Shown here: positions 1-64,000 of the stretch, piece after piece
Layout: each line of letters starts with the position of its first letter
How positions within the stretch are numbered: position 1 is the stretch's first letter
Origin: Eledone cirrhosa
Taxonomy: Eukaryota
Length of the DNA stretch: 64,000 bases
Assembly: GCA_964016885.1 (NCBI GenBank)
Contig: OZ024742.1
Span: 134,044,001 to 134,108,000, forward strand
Reading direction: 5' to 3'
Made by a program: the position numbers and the translations under genes
The notes under the pieces: model-generated
Told to the model about the DNA's origin: nothing
The model's input: only the letters and a program-made list of their open reading frames with translations
The model's database searches: none

Positions 1-531
1 GCTCAACAGTTTCAGGTTGATATATATAATAGTTCCGATTTGTTCTGTAATTTAAAGGTACTATTTGGCGGTTAAAACACCGGCCGCGCCCCAGGCCCCA
101 TGGCTAATTAAGCCACGCCGAGTATTTTCATTTACTGAAAGAAGGGGAATTTATTTTTCCAAGCACTCCAGGTGAGCCCGTTCGCCAGGGAGCTGGTCGC
201 GCCGCCGCCAAAACCCACCCAACGGTCCGACAGAAAGTTGGAACTTTAGAATTTTGCTTAACTCTATCGGATGAAGTTGAAAGAATTCAGAATAACATTC
301 AGAATAACATTCAGAATAACATTATGAAACTAAGGAGTAAGAGGATTGAGAATTGAACAAACAGAAAATTGAAGATTAGACATTCAAATAACTTCTATGA
401 GGTTTTGGGTTGCGGGGTTTAATTAAATAGTCTTTTATGAAGAAACGTTAATTGTATTATGTAGATCTGTAATTTATCCTAGTGGGATGTAGAGTGCGGG
501 ATATAGTCGTGTAATGTTTAATTTTTGTTCT

Positions 532-1075
532 CAGGAGGAGACATTCTAGTGTCGTGTGCTAATGGGTACAGGTCCCAATGTGAGGAGTAGAAATACATGG
601 ATACATAGAAGTGGAATACGTGGAAGAGCACATTGGTACAGCAGAGGTATAAATATATAAACATATCAATATATACGTATAAACATGTAAATAAACCAAC
701 AAGAGTGGTGTTGGAGTAAGATGGAGAAATCAGGACATTAATACAGCAAACAAAGATGTGAAGATATAGATAAACAAACAATAGTCGTTGTCTAGTAAAT
801 GTAGAGTTCAAGAGACAGGAGAAATACAATATAGTTCGGGTTGCGGTATTTATGTTCCCAGGGGGAAATATTCCAGTGACGTGTGCTGAGGGTACACGCG
901 AGTAAAAGTCCGAATAAGGGAAGTAGAAAGTACATGGATGTATAGAGGTAGAATACGTGGAGGAGCATCAATACAGCAAATAAAGATGTAAAGATATAAA
1001 TAAACAAACAAGAGTCGTTGTCTATTAAATGGAGAGTTCAAGACACAGGAGAAATATAATATAGTTCAAGTTGCA
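532..1075. repeat. Diverged internal tandem duplication
   Basis: 764-838 resembles 994-1067, and 532-660 resembles 855-975. Confidence 0.7.
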
Positions 1076-1567
1076 GTCAGATAATGCATATGGATGTGGA
1101 AACAGTGCGTGTTCGAGTCTGGGAGTTCAGTGTGAGTTATACATGCCCAGAAGTATAGGGTAGCCATTTAGTTAATTCAGTGCAGTACAATACATGTTAT
1201 GGTCCAGTCCGTGGAGTTTCGTCGAAGTTCGGATATTCTGTGAGGGGAGTAGCAAAGGGCCAGGCGAAAGCACCGGGTAGCCAAAGTTCGAATTGTGGTT
1301 AGATATATTCAGTCCCATGCCGCTGTTGATTATTACATTTTGAAGTGCTCAACATTTCAGGAGCGTTATTTATTCAGGTTTGAGGTTCACCACTGTATAG
1401 AGATGGTCTATTCCGTATGGTCAATCGTAATGCAATAATATAGAGAGTACTCAACGTAAAGCAGTTCAACCGTCTTTGTTTTTGTAGTTGGTGGTGCTAT
1501 TACGGAGTTAAATATTATAATGAAATGACAGGAGGCTGGATTTGTGTAAATCCTTGAAAGGTTTATT

Positions 1568-1625
1568 ATACTATGATCATTTCAATGACCGGGTTCCGTA
1601 TGAATCCGGTGATATCATCAGGTAT
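1568..1625 (-). ncRNA. Type I hammerhead ribozyme
   Basis: Minus strand: ATAC-CTGATGA-stem II (ACCGGATTC/GAACCCGGT)-GAAA-TGATCA-TA-GTAT. Confidence 0.85.
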
Positions 1626-2523
1626 TCGAAATATAATACGTGAATGTAATAGGTAAAATCCATGGGGCTGAAAATCGAGACCCGAGGGCGACCGCTATTC
1701 TGTTCCTTCAACCTCAGCCGGTCGCCCTGGAGTGACGTGGCTAAATTTTATAGTATGCTACTACCGGTCAGATGAACGAAAACAGAAAGAGATGGGAGCA
1801 TAGGTTAACGTCGATCCCATGACACAAGGTAAAAGAAAGAAAGAAAGGAAGGAGAAGAAGGGGGAAGAAAGAAGAAGAGAAGTCAGGGTTAATGTCAGCT
1901 AAAAGAGGAAGGTAACTACTACTGGTCAGATATAGGCAAGCAAGAGGGGGAAGGAATATAAGTCTGCAGGGAGGAGGAGAGGAGAGAAGGAAGGGAAGAG
2001 ATAAGTAGAAAAGTAAGGGTTGATGGCTACAAGAAGGAAGATAGAAAGGAAGAGGAAGAAAGGTCGATATTAATGTCAGACCACAGTCAAGCCAGGAGTG
2101 ACGCGAGAAAATTTTCACAGGGACCCGCATCTTAGCGGAAATGGATATATTGGGAGTCAGTGTTTTACAGTGTTTAGACTTCTAGGATGAAGTTAAAAAA
2201 ATTTAATAATCAATATTCAATATTAAAGAGATTAGAAAATTTAAAGTTCAACAGTTTAACAATTAATTATATAATAGTTCCGATTTGTTCTGTAATTTAA
2301 AGGTACTATTTGGCGGTTAAAACAACGGCCGCGCCCCGGGCCCCAAGGCGAACTAAGCCACGCCGAGTATTTTCATTTACTGAAAGAAGGGGAAATTTAT
2401 TTTTCCAAGCACTCTAGGTGAGCTCGTTCGCCACGGAGCTGGTCGCGTCGCCATTAAAACCCACCCAACAGTCCGACAGTAAAACCTGGATTTTACCTAT
2501 TACTTTCACGTATTATATTTCGA

Positions 2524-2581
2524 ATACCTGATGATATCACCGGATTCATACGGAACCCGGTCATTGAAATGATCATAGTAT
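2524..2581 (+). ncRNA. Type I hammerhead ribozyme (inverted copy)
   Basis: ATAC CTGATGA tatcaccggattcatacggaacccggtcatt GAAA TGATCA TA GTAT. Confidence 0.85.
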
Positions 2582-2629
2582 AATAAACCTTTCAAGGATT
2601 TACACAAATCCAGCCTCCTGTCATTTCAT

Positions 2630-2699
<70 letters not shown>

Positions 2700-2725
2700 T
2701 ATATATATATATATATATTTATATA

Positions 2726-2764
<39 letters not shown>

Positions 2765-2914: not shown

Positions 2915-3298
2915 AAATAAAGGTCTCAAACCAGCCATCTAGATATCTTGCCAAGCCACGCTGACAGGAAATAGTATAGAGTATCTGTTCTATCTCTAAT
3001 GTCAAAGAGTTAAAATTAGATGGATAAAGAGTAGTCTCCCTTTAAAAGGGGTTTGTTTAGGGTTTATTTTTTTTTTTTTTTATATATATGCCTCTTTAAG
3101 TGTGTGGGAGAAGGCATGAAGGTGTAAGTATGTGAGTGTGTGTGTGTGAGTGTGAGAAGATAAGTCTATTCGTAAATGTGGGGGATAGGTGTTATCTGGT
3201 GTTAGAACTGGTTTTGTGTGTGTATGTGTGAGAGAGAATAAGTGGATGTGTAAGCATGTGTGTGTGTAGGGTGTGTAAATATGGGGCTAGGAGCCCTA

Positions 3299-3761
3299 TC
3301 AGGTTATAAATTGGGTGTTGAGTTCTAGTCTATTATTGATTGGTGGTTGTGTTTTATCTATAATTAGTGCTTCCTTAATTCTAAGATTGCCGAGGTTTCT
3401 TTCCTTAGTTTCTATCCTAACTGTTATGGTTTTGTCGGTGTTTTTGCATTTAACTAGGTGTTTCTTAAATGAGGAAGCGTTAGTATTGAGGTGTTCTTTT
3501 ATTTTTATCTGGAGTGGTCGGGTGGTGCTACCTACGTAGAAGTTGTTGCATTTGTCACACTCTAGTCTGTATACGACGTAAGCCTGGTGGCATAGGTCTG
3601 TGTCGTTGATGGGGCAGTTGGCTAGTCTGCAGCAGTTGTCATGTCTGGTGGAGTGTCTTTTGGTTAGCTGTCCGCGTAGAGAAGGACCTGAGTGGGCCAG
3701 TTGGATATCTAGTCCCTCTCGTCTGATGGCTCTGCGGATGGCTGTTGTTGTTTCTTCACTG
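3299..3761 (-). pseudogene. Inverted copy of the PLE GIY-YIG endonuclease
   Basis: ORF 3299..3847: VVYRLECDKCNNFYVGSTTRPLQIKIKEH. Confidence 0.9.
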
Positions 3762-4426
3762 CCAAGTTCGGATACATAAAGAACGAACTGGCACGTATCC
3801 AGAACAAATGCACCGACGCAAGAGACCGAGACACACACACCACACATTTCCTGAAAGTACTCAAACTAAACGGATACACGACATCCACCACAAACCGTGC
3901 CAGAAAGAACAGAGGACACCACACCCGAGGCACTAACACTTGCTTCCTGAAGTTCCCACACTTCAGTGAAGAAACAACAACAGCCATCCGCAGAGCCATC
4001 AGACGAGAGGGACTAGATATCCAACTGGCCCACTCAGGTCCTTCTTTACGCGGAGAGCTAACCAAAAGACACTCCACCAGACATGACAACTGCTGCAGAC
4101 TAGCCAACTGCCTCATCAACGACACATACCTATGCCACCAGGCTTACGTCGTATACAGACTAGAGTGTGACAAATGCAACAACTTCTACGTAGGTAGCAC
4201 CACCCGACCACTCCACATAAGAATAAAAGAACACCTCAATACTAACGCTTCCTCATTTAAGAAACACCTAGTTAAATGCAAAAACACCGACAAAACCATA
4301 ACAGTTAGGATAGAAACTAAGGAAAGAAACCTCGGCAATCTTAGAATTAAGGAAGCACTAATTATAGATAAAACACAACCACCAATCAATAATAGAATAG
4401 AACTCAACACCAAATTTATAACCTGA
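3761..4426 (+). pseudogene. 5'-truncated PLE ORF: RT thumb/linker + GIY-YIG endonuclease
   Basis: Open frame without a start codon: ...LKLNGY...VVYRLECDKCNNFYVGSTTRPLHIRIKEH...LRIKEALII...INNR. Confidence 0.9.
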
Positions 4427-4753
4427 TAGGGCTCCTAGCCCCATATTTACACACCCCACACACACACATGCTTACACCTCCACTTATACTCTCTCACACA
4501 TACACACACAAAACCAGTTCTAACAGCAGATAACACCTATCCCCCACATTTACGAATAGACTTATCTTCTCACACTCACACACACACACTCACATAGTTA
4601 CACCTTCATGCCTTCTCCCACAGACTTAAACAGGCATATATATAAAAAAACAACAAAAAAACCCTCCTTTTAAAGGGAGACTACTCTTTATCCATCTAAT
4701 TTTAACTCTTTGACATTAGAGATAGAACAGATACTCTATACTATTTCCTGTCA

Positions 4754-5203
4754 TATGTATGTATATGTATGTGTGTATGGCTATGTTTGTGTATGTGTAT
4801 GCTTGTAGACATATATATATATGTATATGTATATATATATATACGTATGTATATGTGTGTATGTATATGTATATATATATATACGTATGTATATGTGTGT
4901 ATGTATATGTATTTATATTTATGTTTCTATGTGTATGTGAGTATATATGTGTGTGTGGTTGTATATATGCATGTGTATGTATGGATGTGTTGATATTTAT
5001 GTGCGTATGTATATATGTGTATATGTATGTTTGTGTGTATTTATATACACATATATGTGTGTATATATGTGTGTGTGTGTATGTATGAGTGTATGTATAT
5101 GTATATGTATGTGTTTGTGTGTATTTATATACACATATATGTGTGTATATATGCGTGTATGTATATGTATTTATATTTATGTTTCTATGTGTATGTATGT
5201 GTG

Positions 5204-10778: not shown

Positions 10779-12243
<1,465 letters not shown>

Positions 12244-12391
12244 AGATTTTGAGTTTATGTTGGTTGTATACCAATCCTCAGTATGCAGGCTGGAGCACTC
12301 GACGAAGTGCGCAGATTGGTTTGGTTACTCCGGAGTAGTGTAAAATAAAGTTAAATAAAAGTCAAATGATTAAAATTTAGCTTCGTTTATT

Positions 12392-12446
12392 ACTGCTATA
12401 TATATTTCAGTGACAGCCATCTTTGGCTGTGACCTCTTCAGGCAGT
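12392..12446 (-). ncRNA. Type I hammerhead ribozyme
   Basis: Minus strand: ACTGC-CTGAAGA-GGTCACAGCCA aaga TGGCTGTCACT-GAAA-TATATA-TA-GCAGT. Confidence 0.9.
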
Positions 12447-61932: not shown

Positions 61933-62144
61933 TTGCCTTTGTCAGTGTTGAACAAACGAGCAACGATGGTTGCTAGACACTGTACGGCTCAATTCGGGAT
62001 GTTTGTTTACAAACACACCGAGCATTATAATAAATGTTCGGTGAATCCATACGTACATATATATGTGTGTGCATGTATGTATATATATATTCATATACTG
62101 TACTTATACATACTTATGTATATATATACATATATATATATATA

Positions 62145-64000
62145 GGTGTATTATACTATGAACATTTCAATGACCGGGTTCAGTATGAATCCGGTTATAT
62201 CATCAGGTATTCAAAATATAACAAAGGAATATAACAGATAAAATCCATGGGGCTGAACATCAGAGACAAGAGGATGACCGACTATTTAGCAGCTTCTACC
62301 TCAGTCGGCCGCCCTCAAGTGTTGATTATTAAGTCTACTTATGACCATCTGTTGATGGGCGCAAGCTTATAATGTGCTACTACCTTCCCGTCAAAGAGAA
62401 ATGTCAGCATTGAGGTCATGCCACAATAAAGTTGACTATGCGTGCTAGAAATTACCGCGAAAAATGTTTTTTCCAAATAACATATATCTTTAACAAAGGT
62501 ATATATAGTGGGCGCCTGTATGGTATAATGTGTGGACAGAAACTTCGGTTAGCAATTAGAAACGTTAAACTTATGTTTAGAGTTATATGATGAAATAAAA
62601 TTTAATATTTGGGTTGTGAGATTTAGTTAAAGAATTTACAGAAATAGTCTTTTATGAAAAAGTTTAAGTGTATTATAGATAGTCTCGATAAGTTTTCAGG
62701 GTAGGATATATAGTAAAGATTAAGCCCTTGTTTAGCAGTCAATAACCAGCGACGACTGCAGACCCTGGCCAGACCTCCCTAACCACGTGTCAGCCGTTCC
62801 GAGTAATATCGTCTAGCGAAAGAAATGGAAATGGGAAGCACTCCAGGAATGTAACTGTCTTAGGCGTCGGGTGTGTAAGCGGGAAGTCAGCCATCGCCGT
62901 CAGGCCATCGTTTATACCAAACGAATACTATTAATTCACACAGGAGGGGAATTTAGTTACATGCCACTAGGGGGAGGCATGATACAGCTAATAGTTATGA
63001 TTAAGCCTATAATTTAAAGGTACTATTTGGCGGTCAAATCCGGCAGCGCGGCGAGTTCCAAGTCCGACTGGGCCCCGGGGCGAAGCAGCCGTTCCGAGTA
63101 ATTTCGATTACCGTAAGGAGGGGAAATTTAATTTTCAAAGCATTCAAGGAAGTCTTATCAACCCGAGTGCGTGGCGTGCAGTCGGGAAAGCCGCCACATC
63201 CATCGGATCATCGCGTGTTACCAAACGATTATTATATATTCACACCCGTGATGTGAAGTTGGAAGTGGTAAAACCCGATGTAATGCGCAAATAGACTATA
63301 TTTAGTCACCAGTTAATCCGGGTTATAAGTAGTGTGGTTCTTGGGTGGGTAGGGGGAGTGAATAAAGATAAACAGATATGAGGGTACAGAGAGTAATATT
63401 CTAGGGCCGTGTGCTAATGAGCACAGTGATTAGTATATAATGTGAGTAAAGCGAGTAGATAAATAGCTAAATAGAAGGAATAATAAGCAAAATAAATAAA
63501 TAAAAAGCAAAATACAAAAATACAAATACATACATACAGATACATAAATAAAACGCCGTCATAACTAGGGTGGTGATGGAGTAAAACGGAAGTATATAAG
63601 AACATATCGGAGAAATCAAAACACAGGGGAAATACAATATAGATCAAGGTGTAGTTGGATAATACAATGTTATACATATAGATATAGAGGATGGACGAGA
63701 TGGAATGGTATCAGATGATACATAGTGTATGTTCGAGTCTCAGAAATCAATGTGAATCACAACGGCGCTGAAGTATAGGATAGAGAATTCAGTCAATACA
63801 ATACAACTCATAGTATAATACGTAGAATGTTGTCGGAGTCTGAATATTCCCGACAGGGAAGCAGCAGTGGACCAGGTGGGCGGTAGACAAAATCCGAATG
63901 TTGTGTAGATCAGTTAGTCCCATGCTGGCGAAAGCTGTACACTGGAGTCAGTGCCGCTGTTCATTATTACAACTGAAAGCCCTCGACATTTCTGGAGCAT
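62145..64000 (-). mobile_element. Diverged relative of the 1-2633 non-autonomous HHR element
   Basis: 62153-62320 resembles 1568-1735, 63011-63035 resembles 49-73, and 63952-64000 resembles 1319-1366. Confidence 0.75.
62153..62210 (-). ncRNA. Type I hammerhead ribozyme
   Basis: Minus strand: ATAC-CTGATGA-tataACCGGATTCatactGAACCCGGTcatt-GAAA-TGTTCA-TA-GTAT. Confidence 0.82.

What the first reader, a model, noticed from the sequence alone, without database searches (positions are those of the whole stretch)
1..2633. ~2.25-kb non-autonomous HHR-bounded tandem element (large retrozyme-like family)
Seen: direct repetition with period 2245 bp, one HHR at the unit boundary, a 147-bp inverted copy of the HHR segment at the end, and no RT/EN motifs. 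A diverged relative lies at 62145-64000. Established: partial tandem plus inverted pLTR is PLE architecture, and animal retrozymes are usually much shorter HHR tandems that yield circular RNAs. Inference: HHR-to-HHR cleavage would release a ~2.2-kb monomer or circRNA mobilised in trans by PLE RT.
Basis: partly seen in the sequence, partly recalled or inferred. Interest (0 to 1): 0.72.

Follow-up and report, generated by a model that had tools for sequence, protein, structure and literature searches.

The report
Large hammerhead parasite of Penelope retroelements
This is one copy of a young, protein-less jumping element with a 2.76-kb repeat unit and a predicted self-cutting RNA motif; it likely borrows the enzyme of Penelope-type retrotransposons, and the layout of its copies suggests the enzyme copies more than once round a single RNA unit, probably a circle, which is a long-proposed but unshown step.

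Summary
The element is real, but the period is 2758 bp, not 2245. The 2245 offset comes from an internal 507-bp duplication. The insertion starts 1.39 kb before the window. A second hammerhead lies exactly 2758 bp away.
The unit has no RT/endonuclease. The ribozyme 30-mer has 2895 exact matches in the genome. Of 72 loci that run past the unit boundary, none joins a PLE ORF, so this is not a PLE's UTR.
Insertions sit in (TA)n as two back-to-back arms. In 74 of 88, one arm ends at each of two fixed points 144 nt apart, and never both at the same point. Each point lies a few bases before a bulged hairpin shared with coding Hydra-clade PLEs.
Both hairpins together occur only once per arm, just behind the 5' ribozyme. 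Units within one insertion share alleles and deletions. One locus repeats a new 467-bp deletion unit three times. This points to re-entry on one monomer RNA, by circle or by jump.
Cleavage, circles and expression are untested. The scan already found this architecture and the hairpins in smaller families of this genome. Verdict: a new, large variant of a known kind.

The parts
1..1366 (-). Second half (unit positions 1393-2758) of the complete 2758-bp unit; the first half lies upstream of the window (G000:C3:134042609-134044000) and ends in (TA)n at the tail end point
1367..2482 (-). 5'-truncated second pass of the unit (unit positions 1-1116), 99.3% identical to the first
2487..2633 (+). Inverted second arm (unit 296 to about 150), holding a second ribozyme copy and ending in (TA)n at the no-tail end point
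1568..1625 (-). Type I hammerhead motif: stem I 4 bp, long stem II opening with a U-U mismatch, palindromic stem III; predicted cut between 1572 and 1571; activity untested
   Evidence: 65 of 68 positions identical between families A and B against 77-86% in the flanks
2524..2581 (+). Same hammerhead motif in the inverted arm
1446..1508 (-). Hairpin 1 (ACUC/GAGU stem, 2-nt bulge, second stem, long AC-rich loop), just 3' of the no-tail end point
1344..1364 (-). Hairpin 2 (GCUC/GAGC version), just 3' of the tail end point; never part of an insertion's 3' end
1367..1513 (-). Tail: the about 145 nt between the two fixed end points, present at one end of an insertion only
3..260 (.). End of module copy 2 of the 507-bp internal duplication; core 18-172 is conserved in family B (possible promoter, inference)
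1999..2482 (.). Module copy 1 of the 507-bp duplication (cut at the 5' break); its match to 3-236 gives the apparent 2245 period
2634..2761 (.). (TA)n target tract flanking the insertion
62144..64000 (-). Copy of sister family B (2077-bp unit, same ribozyme, end points and hairpins); runs past the window end

Best explanation
It is a non-coding, 2758-bp-unit retroelement with Penelope-type insertions in (TA)n that is likely copied in trans by a Hydra-clade PLE protein, probably from one ribozyme-cut RNA monomer closed into a circle. Shown: unit, lack of ORF, two-armed layout, two fixed ends, hairpins shared with coding Hydra PLEs, shared alleles within an insertion. Inferred steps: (1) a promoter in the upstream partial unit (perhaps the duplicated module) makes minus-strand RNA through both ribozymes; (2) the two ribozymes cut, probably as a dimer through the palindromic stem III, and the 2.76-kb monomer is ligated; (3) the PLE protein, perhaps a dimer, binds hairpins 1 and 2 on that RNA, nicks both strands of (TA)n and starts one cDNA a few bases before each hairpin; (4) each cDNA crosses the ligated cut site after about 60 or 200 nt and runs on, mostly a few hundred bases, rarely more than once round; (5) the two cDNAs are joined at their broken 5' ends, giving one tailed and one tail-less arm.
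For: Ends: 74 of 88 two-armed insertions among 131 loci have one tail end and one no-tail end, 0 have two alike, 14 have an off-site end; 65 of the 74 have TA runs on both sides. Family B: 10 of 14, 0 alike. Last matching base lies 2-8 nt before hairpin 1 in 58 of 64 ends and 1-7 nt before hairpin 2 in 70 of 73. Hairpin 1 across 16 sequences: 94.5% of 127 cells paired, 3 of 8 pairs changed on both sides, slid controls 24-58%; motif scan 247 hits against 0-3 in three shuffles. A coding family with the DKT and CxCX5C marks that PMC8557442 gives for Hydra carries both hairpins behind its own two ends. Re-entry: 71 of 72 loci that pass the unit boundary hold the post-tail sequence once only, so the hairpin pair sits only behind the 5' ribozyme, and a linear RNA copied from there could not yield a full unit. 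Units of one insertion are closer than the median between loci in 35 of 38 tandem and 31 of 31 inverted pairs, with no 5'-unit or 3'-unit lineage (1.32, 1.39, 1.35% between loci, 0.91% within). L165 carries one deletion junction three times (467-bp unit); L037 carries a 122-bp deletion in both units; a family B locus has two full units 0.10% apart against at least 4.6% to other loci. 141 of 143 segments cross the cut site without a gap.
Against: No direct trace of cutting: 0 of 95 arms end within 200-212. The single ribozyme folds no better than shuffles (z -0.52; active fold -4.0 kcal/mol) and has a U-U pair where G-C is usual. In PMC11167929 ribozyme cleavage was not needed for insertion in vitro and no reads ended at the cut site; in the 2026 preprint 8 of 9 dimers did not cleave in vitro. 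Homogenisation is not absolute: only 11 of 38 tandem pairs are closer than every other locus, and gene conversion could contribute. That the hairpins are required is inferred from position and covariation. The census finds only loci within 1 mismatch of one 30-mer, in one assembly; multi-unit sources could be missing. The exact partner family was not found: the active Hydra unit has no alignable DNA with A or B (best E 0.37).
Confidence: 0.55

Rival explanations
1. Same non-autonomous Hydra-type element, but the template is linear: the RT jumps from the RNA 5' end to its redundant 3' end or to a second RNA, with the ribozyme idle or cutting only the 5' end.
For: Explains re-entry without ligation; no arm ends at the cut site; PMC11167929 found uncut RNA to be the main substrate in vitro; template-switch deletions with 3-nt microhomology occur (L165).
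Against: Jumps would have to be seamless in 141 of 143 crossings. The redundant part (unit 12-205) should keep separate 5' and 3' lineages, but it is as alike within a locus as the rest (0.78% against 0.78%; 0.92% within against 1.31% between loci); power is modest. The ribozyme is the best-kept part between A and B.
Confidence: 0.25
2. Copies come from long read-through RNA of rare multi-unit master arrays, and units look alike because masters are homogenised at the DNA level.
For: This is the model in PMC11167929 (mRNA of several copies). Family B and the coding Hydra family do have arrays of 2 to 4.5 units.
Against: Family A has no locus with two full passes among 72, yet has several sub-lineages with their own indels in both units; inverted arms share the alleles too.
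Confidence: 0.12
3. The sequence is only the long UTR/pseudo-LTR of an autonomous PLE whose ORF-bearing copies were missed.
For: Coding Hydra-type PLEs here have 1.4-1.6-kb 3' UTRs ending in a similar ribozyme (L080, L087). Genome searches score only the best candidates.
Against: The unit closes on itself without an ORF in the long copies; 0 of 72 loci passing the boundary join a PLE ORF (nearest hit 385 bp outside one element); no alignable similarity with three such UTRs (best E 0.009, low-complexity).
Confidence: 0.05
4. A satellite-like DNA repeat spread by DNA-level duplication, with a chance ribozyme look-alike.
For: No Rfam hit; weak monomer fold.
Against: Fixed 3' ends, variable 5' breaks, steep 3' bias (2895 against 74 matches), (TA)n targets and the one-tail rule are retrotransposition marks.
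Confidence: 0.03

Closest known systems
Metazoan non-LTR retrozymes (PMC7229834, passages; bioRxiv 10.64898/2026.07.22.740005, parts 1-3 of 5)
   Same: Non-coding head-to-tail units, one type I hammerhead per unit, low GC (39.8%), proposed PLE dependence and circular RNA intermediate.
   Different: Unit 2758 bp (sister 2077 bp) against about 300 bp typical and 51-972 bp in the 2026 survey, whose repeat finder was capped at 1000 bp; here arrays stay under 2 units, most copies are short two-armed stumps; circular RNA is shown for coral, mussel and axolotl, not here.
Hydra-clade EN+ Penelope-like elements (PMC8557442, section 11 and passages)
   Same: Partial tandem, inverted 5'-truncated arm, tail at one end only, (TA)n target, hammerhead in the pseudo-LTR; both start hairpins shared with a Hydra-type coding family of this genome.
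   Different: No ORF; tail about 145 nt against the 30-40 bp given for PLEs; no alignable DNA with the coding families checked.
Non-autonomous Chlamys PLEs such as MRC1 and Chlamys-N4 (PMC8557442, PMC9977147, bioRxiv 2022.06.16.496473; passages)
   Same: Non-autonomous PLEs that form pseudo-LTRs and head-to-tail insertions in microsatellites.
   Different: Green algae, N-terminal-EN clade, mostly without canonical hammerheads; they resemble their partners in 3' sequence, whereas here only a structural signal is shared.
Poseidon_Ac of Anolis (PMC11167929, parts 1-2 of 4)
   Same: Two internal RT start sites downstream of the hammerhead that bracket the tail; both target strands extended; AT-rich target; AC-rich RNA near the start.
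   Different: Autonomous, Poseidon clade; starts lie close together in one stem-loop; a multi-copy linear mRNA was proposed and ribozyme cutting was dispensable in vitro.

Membership tests
Non-autonomous Penelope-like element | Partial tandem forming pseudo-LTRs | tested here: met
   1.4 units at this locus; 72 loci pass the unit boundary
Non-autonomous Penelope-like element | Inverted 5'-truncated arm | tested here: met
   88 of 131 loci two-armed
Non-autonomous Penelope-like element | Tail at one end only | tested here: met
   74 of 88 one tail plus one no-tail end, 0 alike; tail about 145 nt, longer than the published 30-40 bp
Non-autonomous Penelope-like element | No RT/GIY-YIG ORF of its own | tested here: met
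Non-autonomous Penelope-like element | Identified autonomous partner | tested here: inconclusive
   Hairpin pair shared with Hydra-type coding families; no family with alignable 3' sequence found
Hydra clade (as partner) | DKT, RWK-like and CxCX5C motifs, C-terminal EN, (TA)n target | tested here: met
   P0001 shows DKT, RWR and CNCPDRSIC, read by eye against PMC8557442 section 11; no tree was built
Metazoan non-LTR retrozyme | Type I hammerhead in each tandem unit | tested here: met
   Core at 1621 and -1137, 2758 bp apart
Metazoan non-LTR retrozyme | Short unit (about 150-1000 bp) | tested here: not met
   2758 bp; one locus shows a 467-bp derivative
Metazoan non-LTR retrozyme | Self-cleavage of the RNA | not testable with these tools
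   Motif only; U10.1-U11.1 is reported as tolerated in PMC3088659 (one passage) and opens stem II in several other ribozyme families of this genome
Metazoan non-LTR retrozyme | Accumulating monomeric linear and circular RNA | not testable with these tools
   No run with raw RNA reads was offered; DNA footprints only

The most novel reading that the evidence does not exclude
A multi-kilobase non-coding circular RNA, cut out by dimeric hammerheads, is the transposition template of a Hydra-clade PLE enzyme that starts two cDNAs at twin hairpins on one circle; and small animal retrozymes are born from such large parasites in a single deletion, caught in the act at L165 where a 467-bp unit was copied round more than once into both arms.
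Probability: 0.4. Interest if true: 0.75.

Novelty: new variant of a known kind. Interest (0 to 1): 0.52.

Why it matters
How PLEs regenerate their more-than-unit tandem copies is open: PMC4209133 proposed ribozyme-cut circles, PMC11167929 a multi-copy linear RNA. This family separates the two on DNA alone, because it has almost no multi-unit loci and its start signals lie at the 5' end of the monomer. It is young (best copies 98-99% alike), has a 72-locus census, and sits beside an intact, abundant Hydra-type family, so the question becomes testable with one RNA gel and one reconstituted reaction. It also extends ribozyme-bearing PLE parasites to nearly three times the largest unit in the survey read, which could not see units over 1 kb, and links large parasites to small retrozymes. 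The kind of element itself is known.

Tried and rejected
2245-bp period: rejected once upstream DNA was read. Rfam: no hit. Expression: no RNA holder listed; four contig runs of one study and unknown kind were laid and say nothing on strand, ends or expression. Pile-up of 5' breaks at the cut site: 0 of 95; the two gapped crossings are in 82% and 92% copies. Splicing as the cause of the L165 deletion: junction is not GT-AG, has 3-nt microhomology. RNA editing scars: alleles shared by both copies of a locus are rich in AT>GC transitions (22 of 48 against 37 of 182, p 0.0007) but lean T>C, not A>G, on the ribozyme strand (17 against 5, p 0.08), so A-to-I editing of the template is not supported. 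Neptune-type neighbours as partner: three 3' ends read by eye show no such hairpin. Neighbour at 2962-4753: separate PLE fragment, no DNA match to the unit. Direct search for a partner by 3'-end sequence: a family-wide degenerate pattern count could not be run, so the total for A plus B is not known. Earlier findings by sequence: none. Squid genome paper: two passages, nothing relevant. One script line comparing the L165 units without gaps was offset by a 1-nt indel and was redone by alignment (433 of 437).

Full report
1. Observation. The window lies at G000:C3:134044001-134108000 in a 3.0-Gb animal genome. DNA upstream of the window changes the reading. The insertion begins at window -1391, after a long (TA)n tract. 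Positions -1391..-276 match 1367..2482 at 99.3%, so the unit is 2758 bp. A 507-bp module is duplicated inside the unit at 88.7%, and this gives the 2245 offset. The insertion is thus 1.4 units on the minus strand plus a 147-bp inverted arm, flanked by (TA)n on both sides.

2. Ribozyme. The minus strand holds a type I hammerhead core: CUGAUGA at 1621-1615, a 31-nt stem II region, GAAA at 1583-1580, a palindromic stem III, and a predicted cut between 1572 and 1571. The upstream copy is 2758 bp away. Rfam does not detect it. As a monomer it folds no better than shuffles (z -0.52); the active fold scores -4.0 kcal/mol and the stem III palindrome pairs with itself at -9.2. This fits the dimer-type motifs of PLEs described in PMC4209133 (passages). 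Stem II opens with U-U instead of G-C. PMC3088659 reports that mismatch in natural ribozymes (one passage), and several other families in the fetched loci have it. Between this family (A) and its sister (B) the motif is 65 of 68 identical, against 77-86% in five flanking segments. Activity is untested.

3. Family. A 30-mer from the ribozyme has 2895 exact matches (two per two-armed copy, close subfamilies included). A 30-mer just past the unit boundary has 74 matches within 1 mismatch, at 72 loci. I fetched all 72, plus the first 60 loci of the list on contig C1; with one overlap that gives 131 loci. A few lie on small contigs and could duplicate chromosomal loci. The unit has no long ORF (149 aa at most), no Pfam hit in its two longest frames and no tblastn match to four PLE protein pieces. 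None of the 72 loci runs into a PLE ORF. The relative at 62144 belongs to family B, unit 2077 bp, 85% identical to A over the 3' 370 bp and alignable only in patches elsewhere.

4. Ends. Most copies are short, 5'-broken and two-armed. The outer ends are fixed at two points 144 nt apart. Of 88 two-armed insertions, 74 have one end at each point, none has two alike, and 14 have an off-site or cut end; 65 of the 74 have TA runs on both sides. Family B gives 10 of 14, none alike. This is the PLE pattern of partial tandem, inverted arm and one-sided tail (PMC8557442, passages), and it matches the two internal RT start sites found for Poseidon_Ac (PMC11167929, parts 1-2 of 4). The tail here is about 145 nt, not 30-40.

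5. Start signal and partner. Each end point lies a few bases 5' of a bulged hairpin: 2-8 nt for 58 of 64 no-tail ends, 1-7 nt for 70 of 73 tail ends (AT-rich microhomology blurs the exact base). Hairpin 1 aligns across A, B and ten sequences of other families, with 94.5% of cells paired and 3 of 8 pairs changed on both sides; slid structures reach 24-58%. Five of the eight pairs never vary and say nothing, and I drew the structure from these sequences. A motif scan gave 247 hits against 0-3 in shuffles. An abundant coding family (148 scored matches, 95-100% identical, 784-aa frame) shows the DKT, RWR and CxCX5C marks of the Hydra clade (read by eye, no tree) and has both hairpins behind its own two ends. 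So the partner is likely a Hydra-clade protein. They are not independent support.

6. Template. Hairpin 2 lies beyond the tail end, so no insertion ends with it. The complete pair exists only where a copy runs through the unit boundary, that is just behind the upstream ribozyme. In 71 of 72 such loci this happens once (fetched stretches reach one period to each side). If both starts need their hairpins (inferred), copying a linear transcript from there would give only the upstream fragment, never a full unit. Yet 72 loci exceed one unit. The enzyme must therefore pass from the RNA's 5' end to its 3' end. Sequence data agree. Units of one insertion are closer than the median between loci in 35 of 38 tandem and 31 of 31 inverted pairs, and in the lowest tenth in 24 and 25 of them (segments under 88% identity or 100 bp and overlaps under 300 nt were dropped). 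There is no 5'-unit or 3'-unit lineage. In the first 80 loci, tandem pairs shared 242 non-majority alleles and differed at 168. L037 has a 122-bp deletion in both units. L165 has a 467-bp deletion unit whose junction occurs twice in one arm and once in the other, units 433 of 437 identical, and no other locus of the census has it. One B locus has two full units 0.10% apart, against 4.6% or more to other loci. The cut site is crossed without a gap in 141 of 143 segments. A ligated circle explains all this most simply, as PMC4209133 proposed. Against: no arm ends at the cut site (0 of 95); only 11 of 38 tandem pairs beat every other locus; conversion or missing master arrays could mimic part of the signal; cleavage was dispensable for Poseidon_Ac in vitro; and 8 of 9 retrozyme dimers did not cut in the 2026 preprint.

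7. Promoter. The duplicated module has a GC-rich core kept in family B (70-74%). Fifteen of the 72 loci have an upstream fragment long enough to include it, and 47 include the upstream ribozyme. That it is the promoter is a guess from position and conservation.

8. Comparison and novelty. It works like a metazoan non-LTR retrozyme (PMC7229834, passages; bioRxiv 10.64898/2026.07.22.740005, parts 1-3 of 5) but fails their size feature: 2758 bp against 51-972 bp in a survey capped at 1000 bp. It meets the testable features of a non-autonomous PLE, a kind known from Chlamydomonas (passages). Seven paper searches (listings only, apart from the papers named) showed no multi-kb ribozyme-bearing non-coding PLE in an animal. 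Subscription papers, Repbase, Dfam and supplements were not seen. The scan has noted the same two-armed architecture in 310-1000-bp families of this genome, but no stretch like this one. Verdict: new variant of a known kind. My odds: non-autonomous PLE 0.93, Hydra-clade partner 0.8, re-entry on one monomer 0.75, covalent circle made by the ribozyme 0.5-0.55. Interest 0.52.

Noticed in passing
L158+L159, G000:C1 about 91489116-91492741: In an insertion of the active Hydra-type PLE, after 4.5 tandem units, a 55-bp piece of the ORF is repeated about 66 times (58 exact) between the 5' break and the inverted arm. It looks like reiterative, telomerase-like copying by the PLE RT; slippage or an assembly artefact is not excluded.
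   Followed up: partly
L156+L157, G000:C1:437198300-437214400; also L160, L161: Intact Hydra-type PLE (784-aa frame, 3531-3544-bp unit) forms arrays of up to 4.5 units that are 99.8-99.97% identical within an array and 98.1-99.9% to the reference unit from another array. Its hammerhead, read by eye, has a U3-A8 core variant.
   Followed up: partly
L165, G000:C1:164674230-164675604: 467-bp mini-unit of family A (unit 1-388 joined to 2680-2758) in tandem and in the inverted arm: a retrozyme-sized derivative that keeps the ribozyme and both hairpins but lacks the putative promoter module.
   Followed up: yes
window 2962-4753: Separate two-armed PLE fragment (701-bp arms, 97%) encoding a GIY-YIG-like endonuclease end; no hammerhead core seen in 4380-4800.
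   Followed up: partly
window 12241-12441 (minus), 27334 (plus), 61898 (plus): Three more hammerhead cores of other families; the one at 12441 is followed by the same bulged hairpin.
   Followed up: partly
family A loci L021-L100: Alleles shared by both copies of one locus are rich in AT>GC transitions (22 of 48 against 37 of 182), leaning T>C on the ribozyme strand; possibly RT misreading of U; unexplained.
   Followed up: partly
L037, L082, L090 (about 310-bp period); L033, L066 (about 447-bp period): Small hammerhead tandem arrays of other families lie in the fetched flanks.
   Followed up: no
window 521-1077: Older nested internal repeats in the unit (521-671 with 848-1002, 72%; 732-847 with 961-1077, 89%), with copy-number variants among subfamilies.
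   Followed up: no
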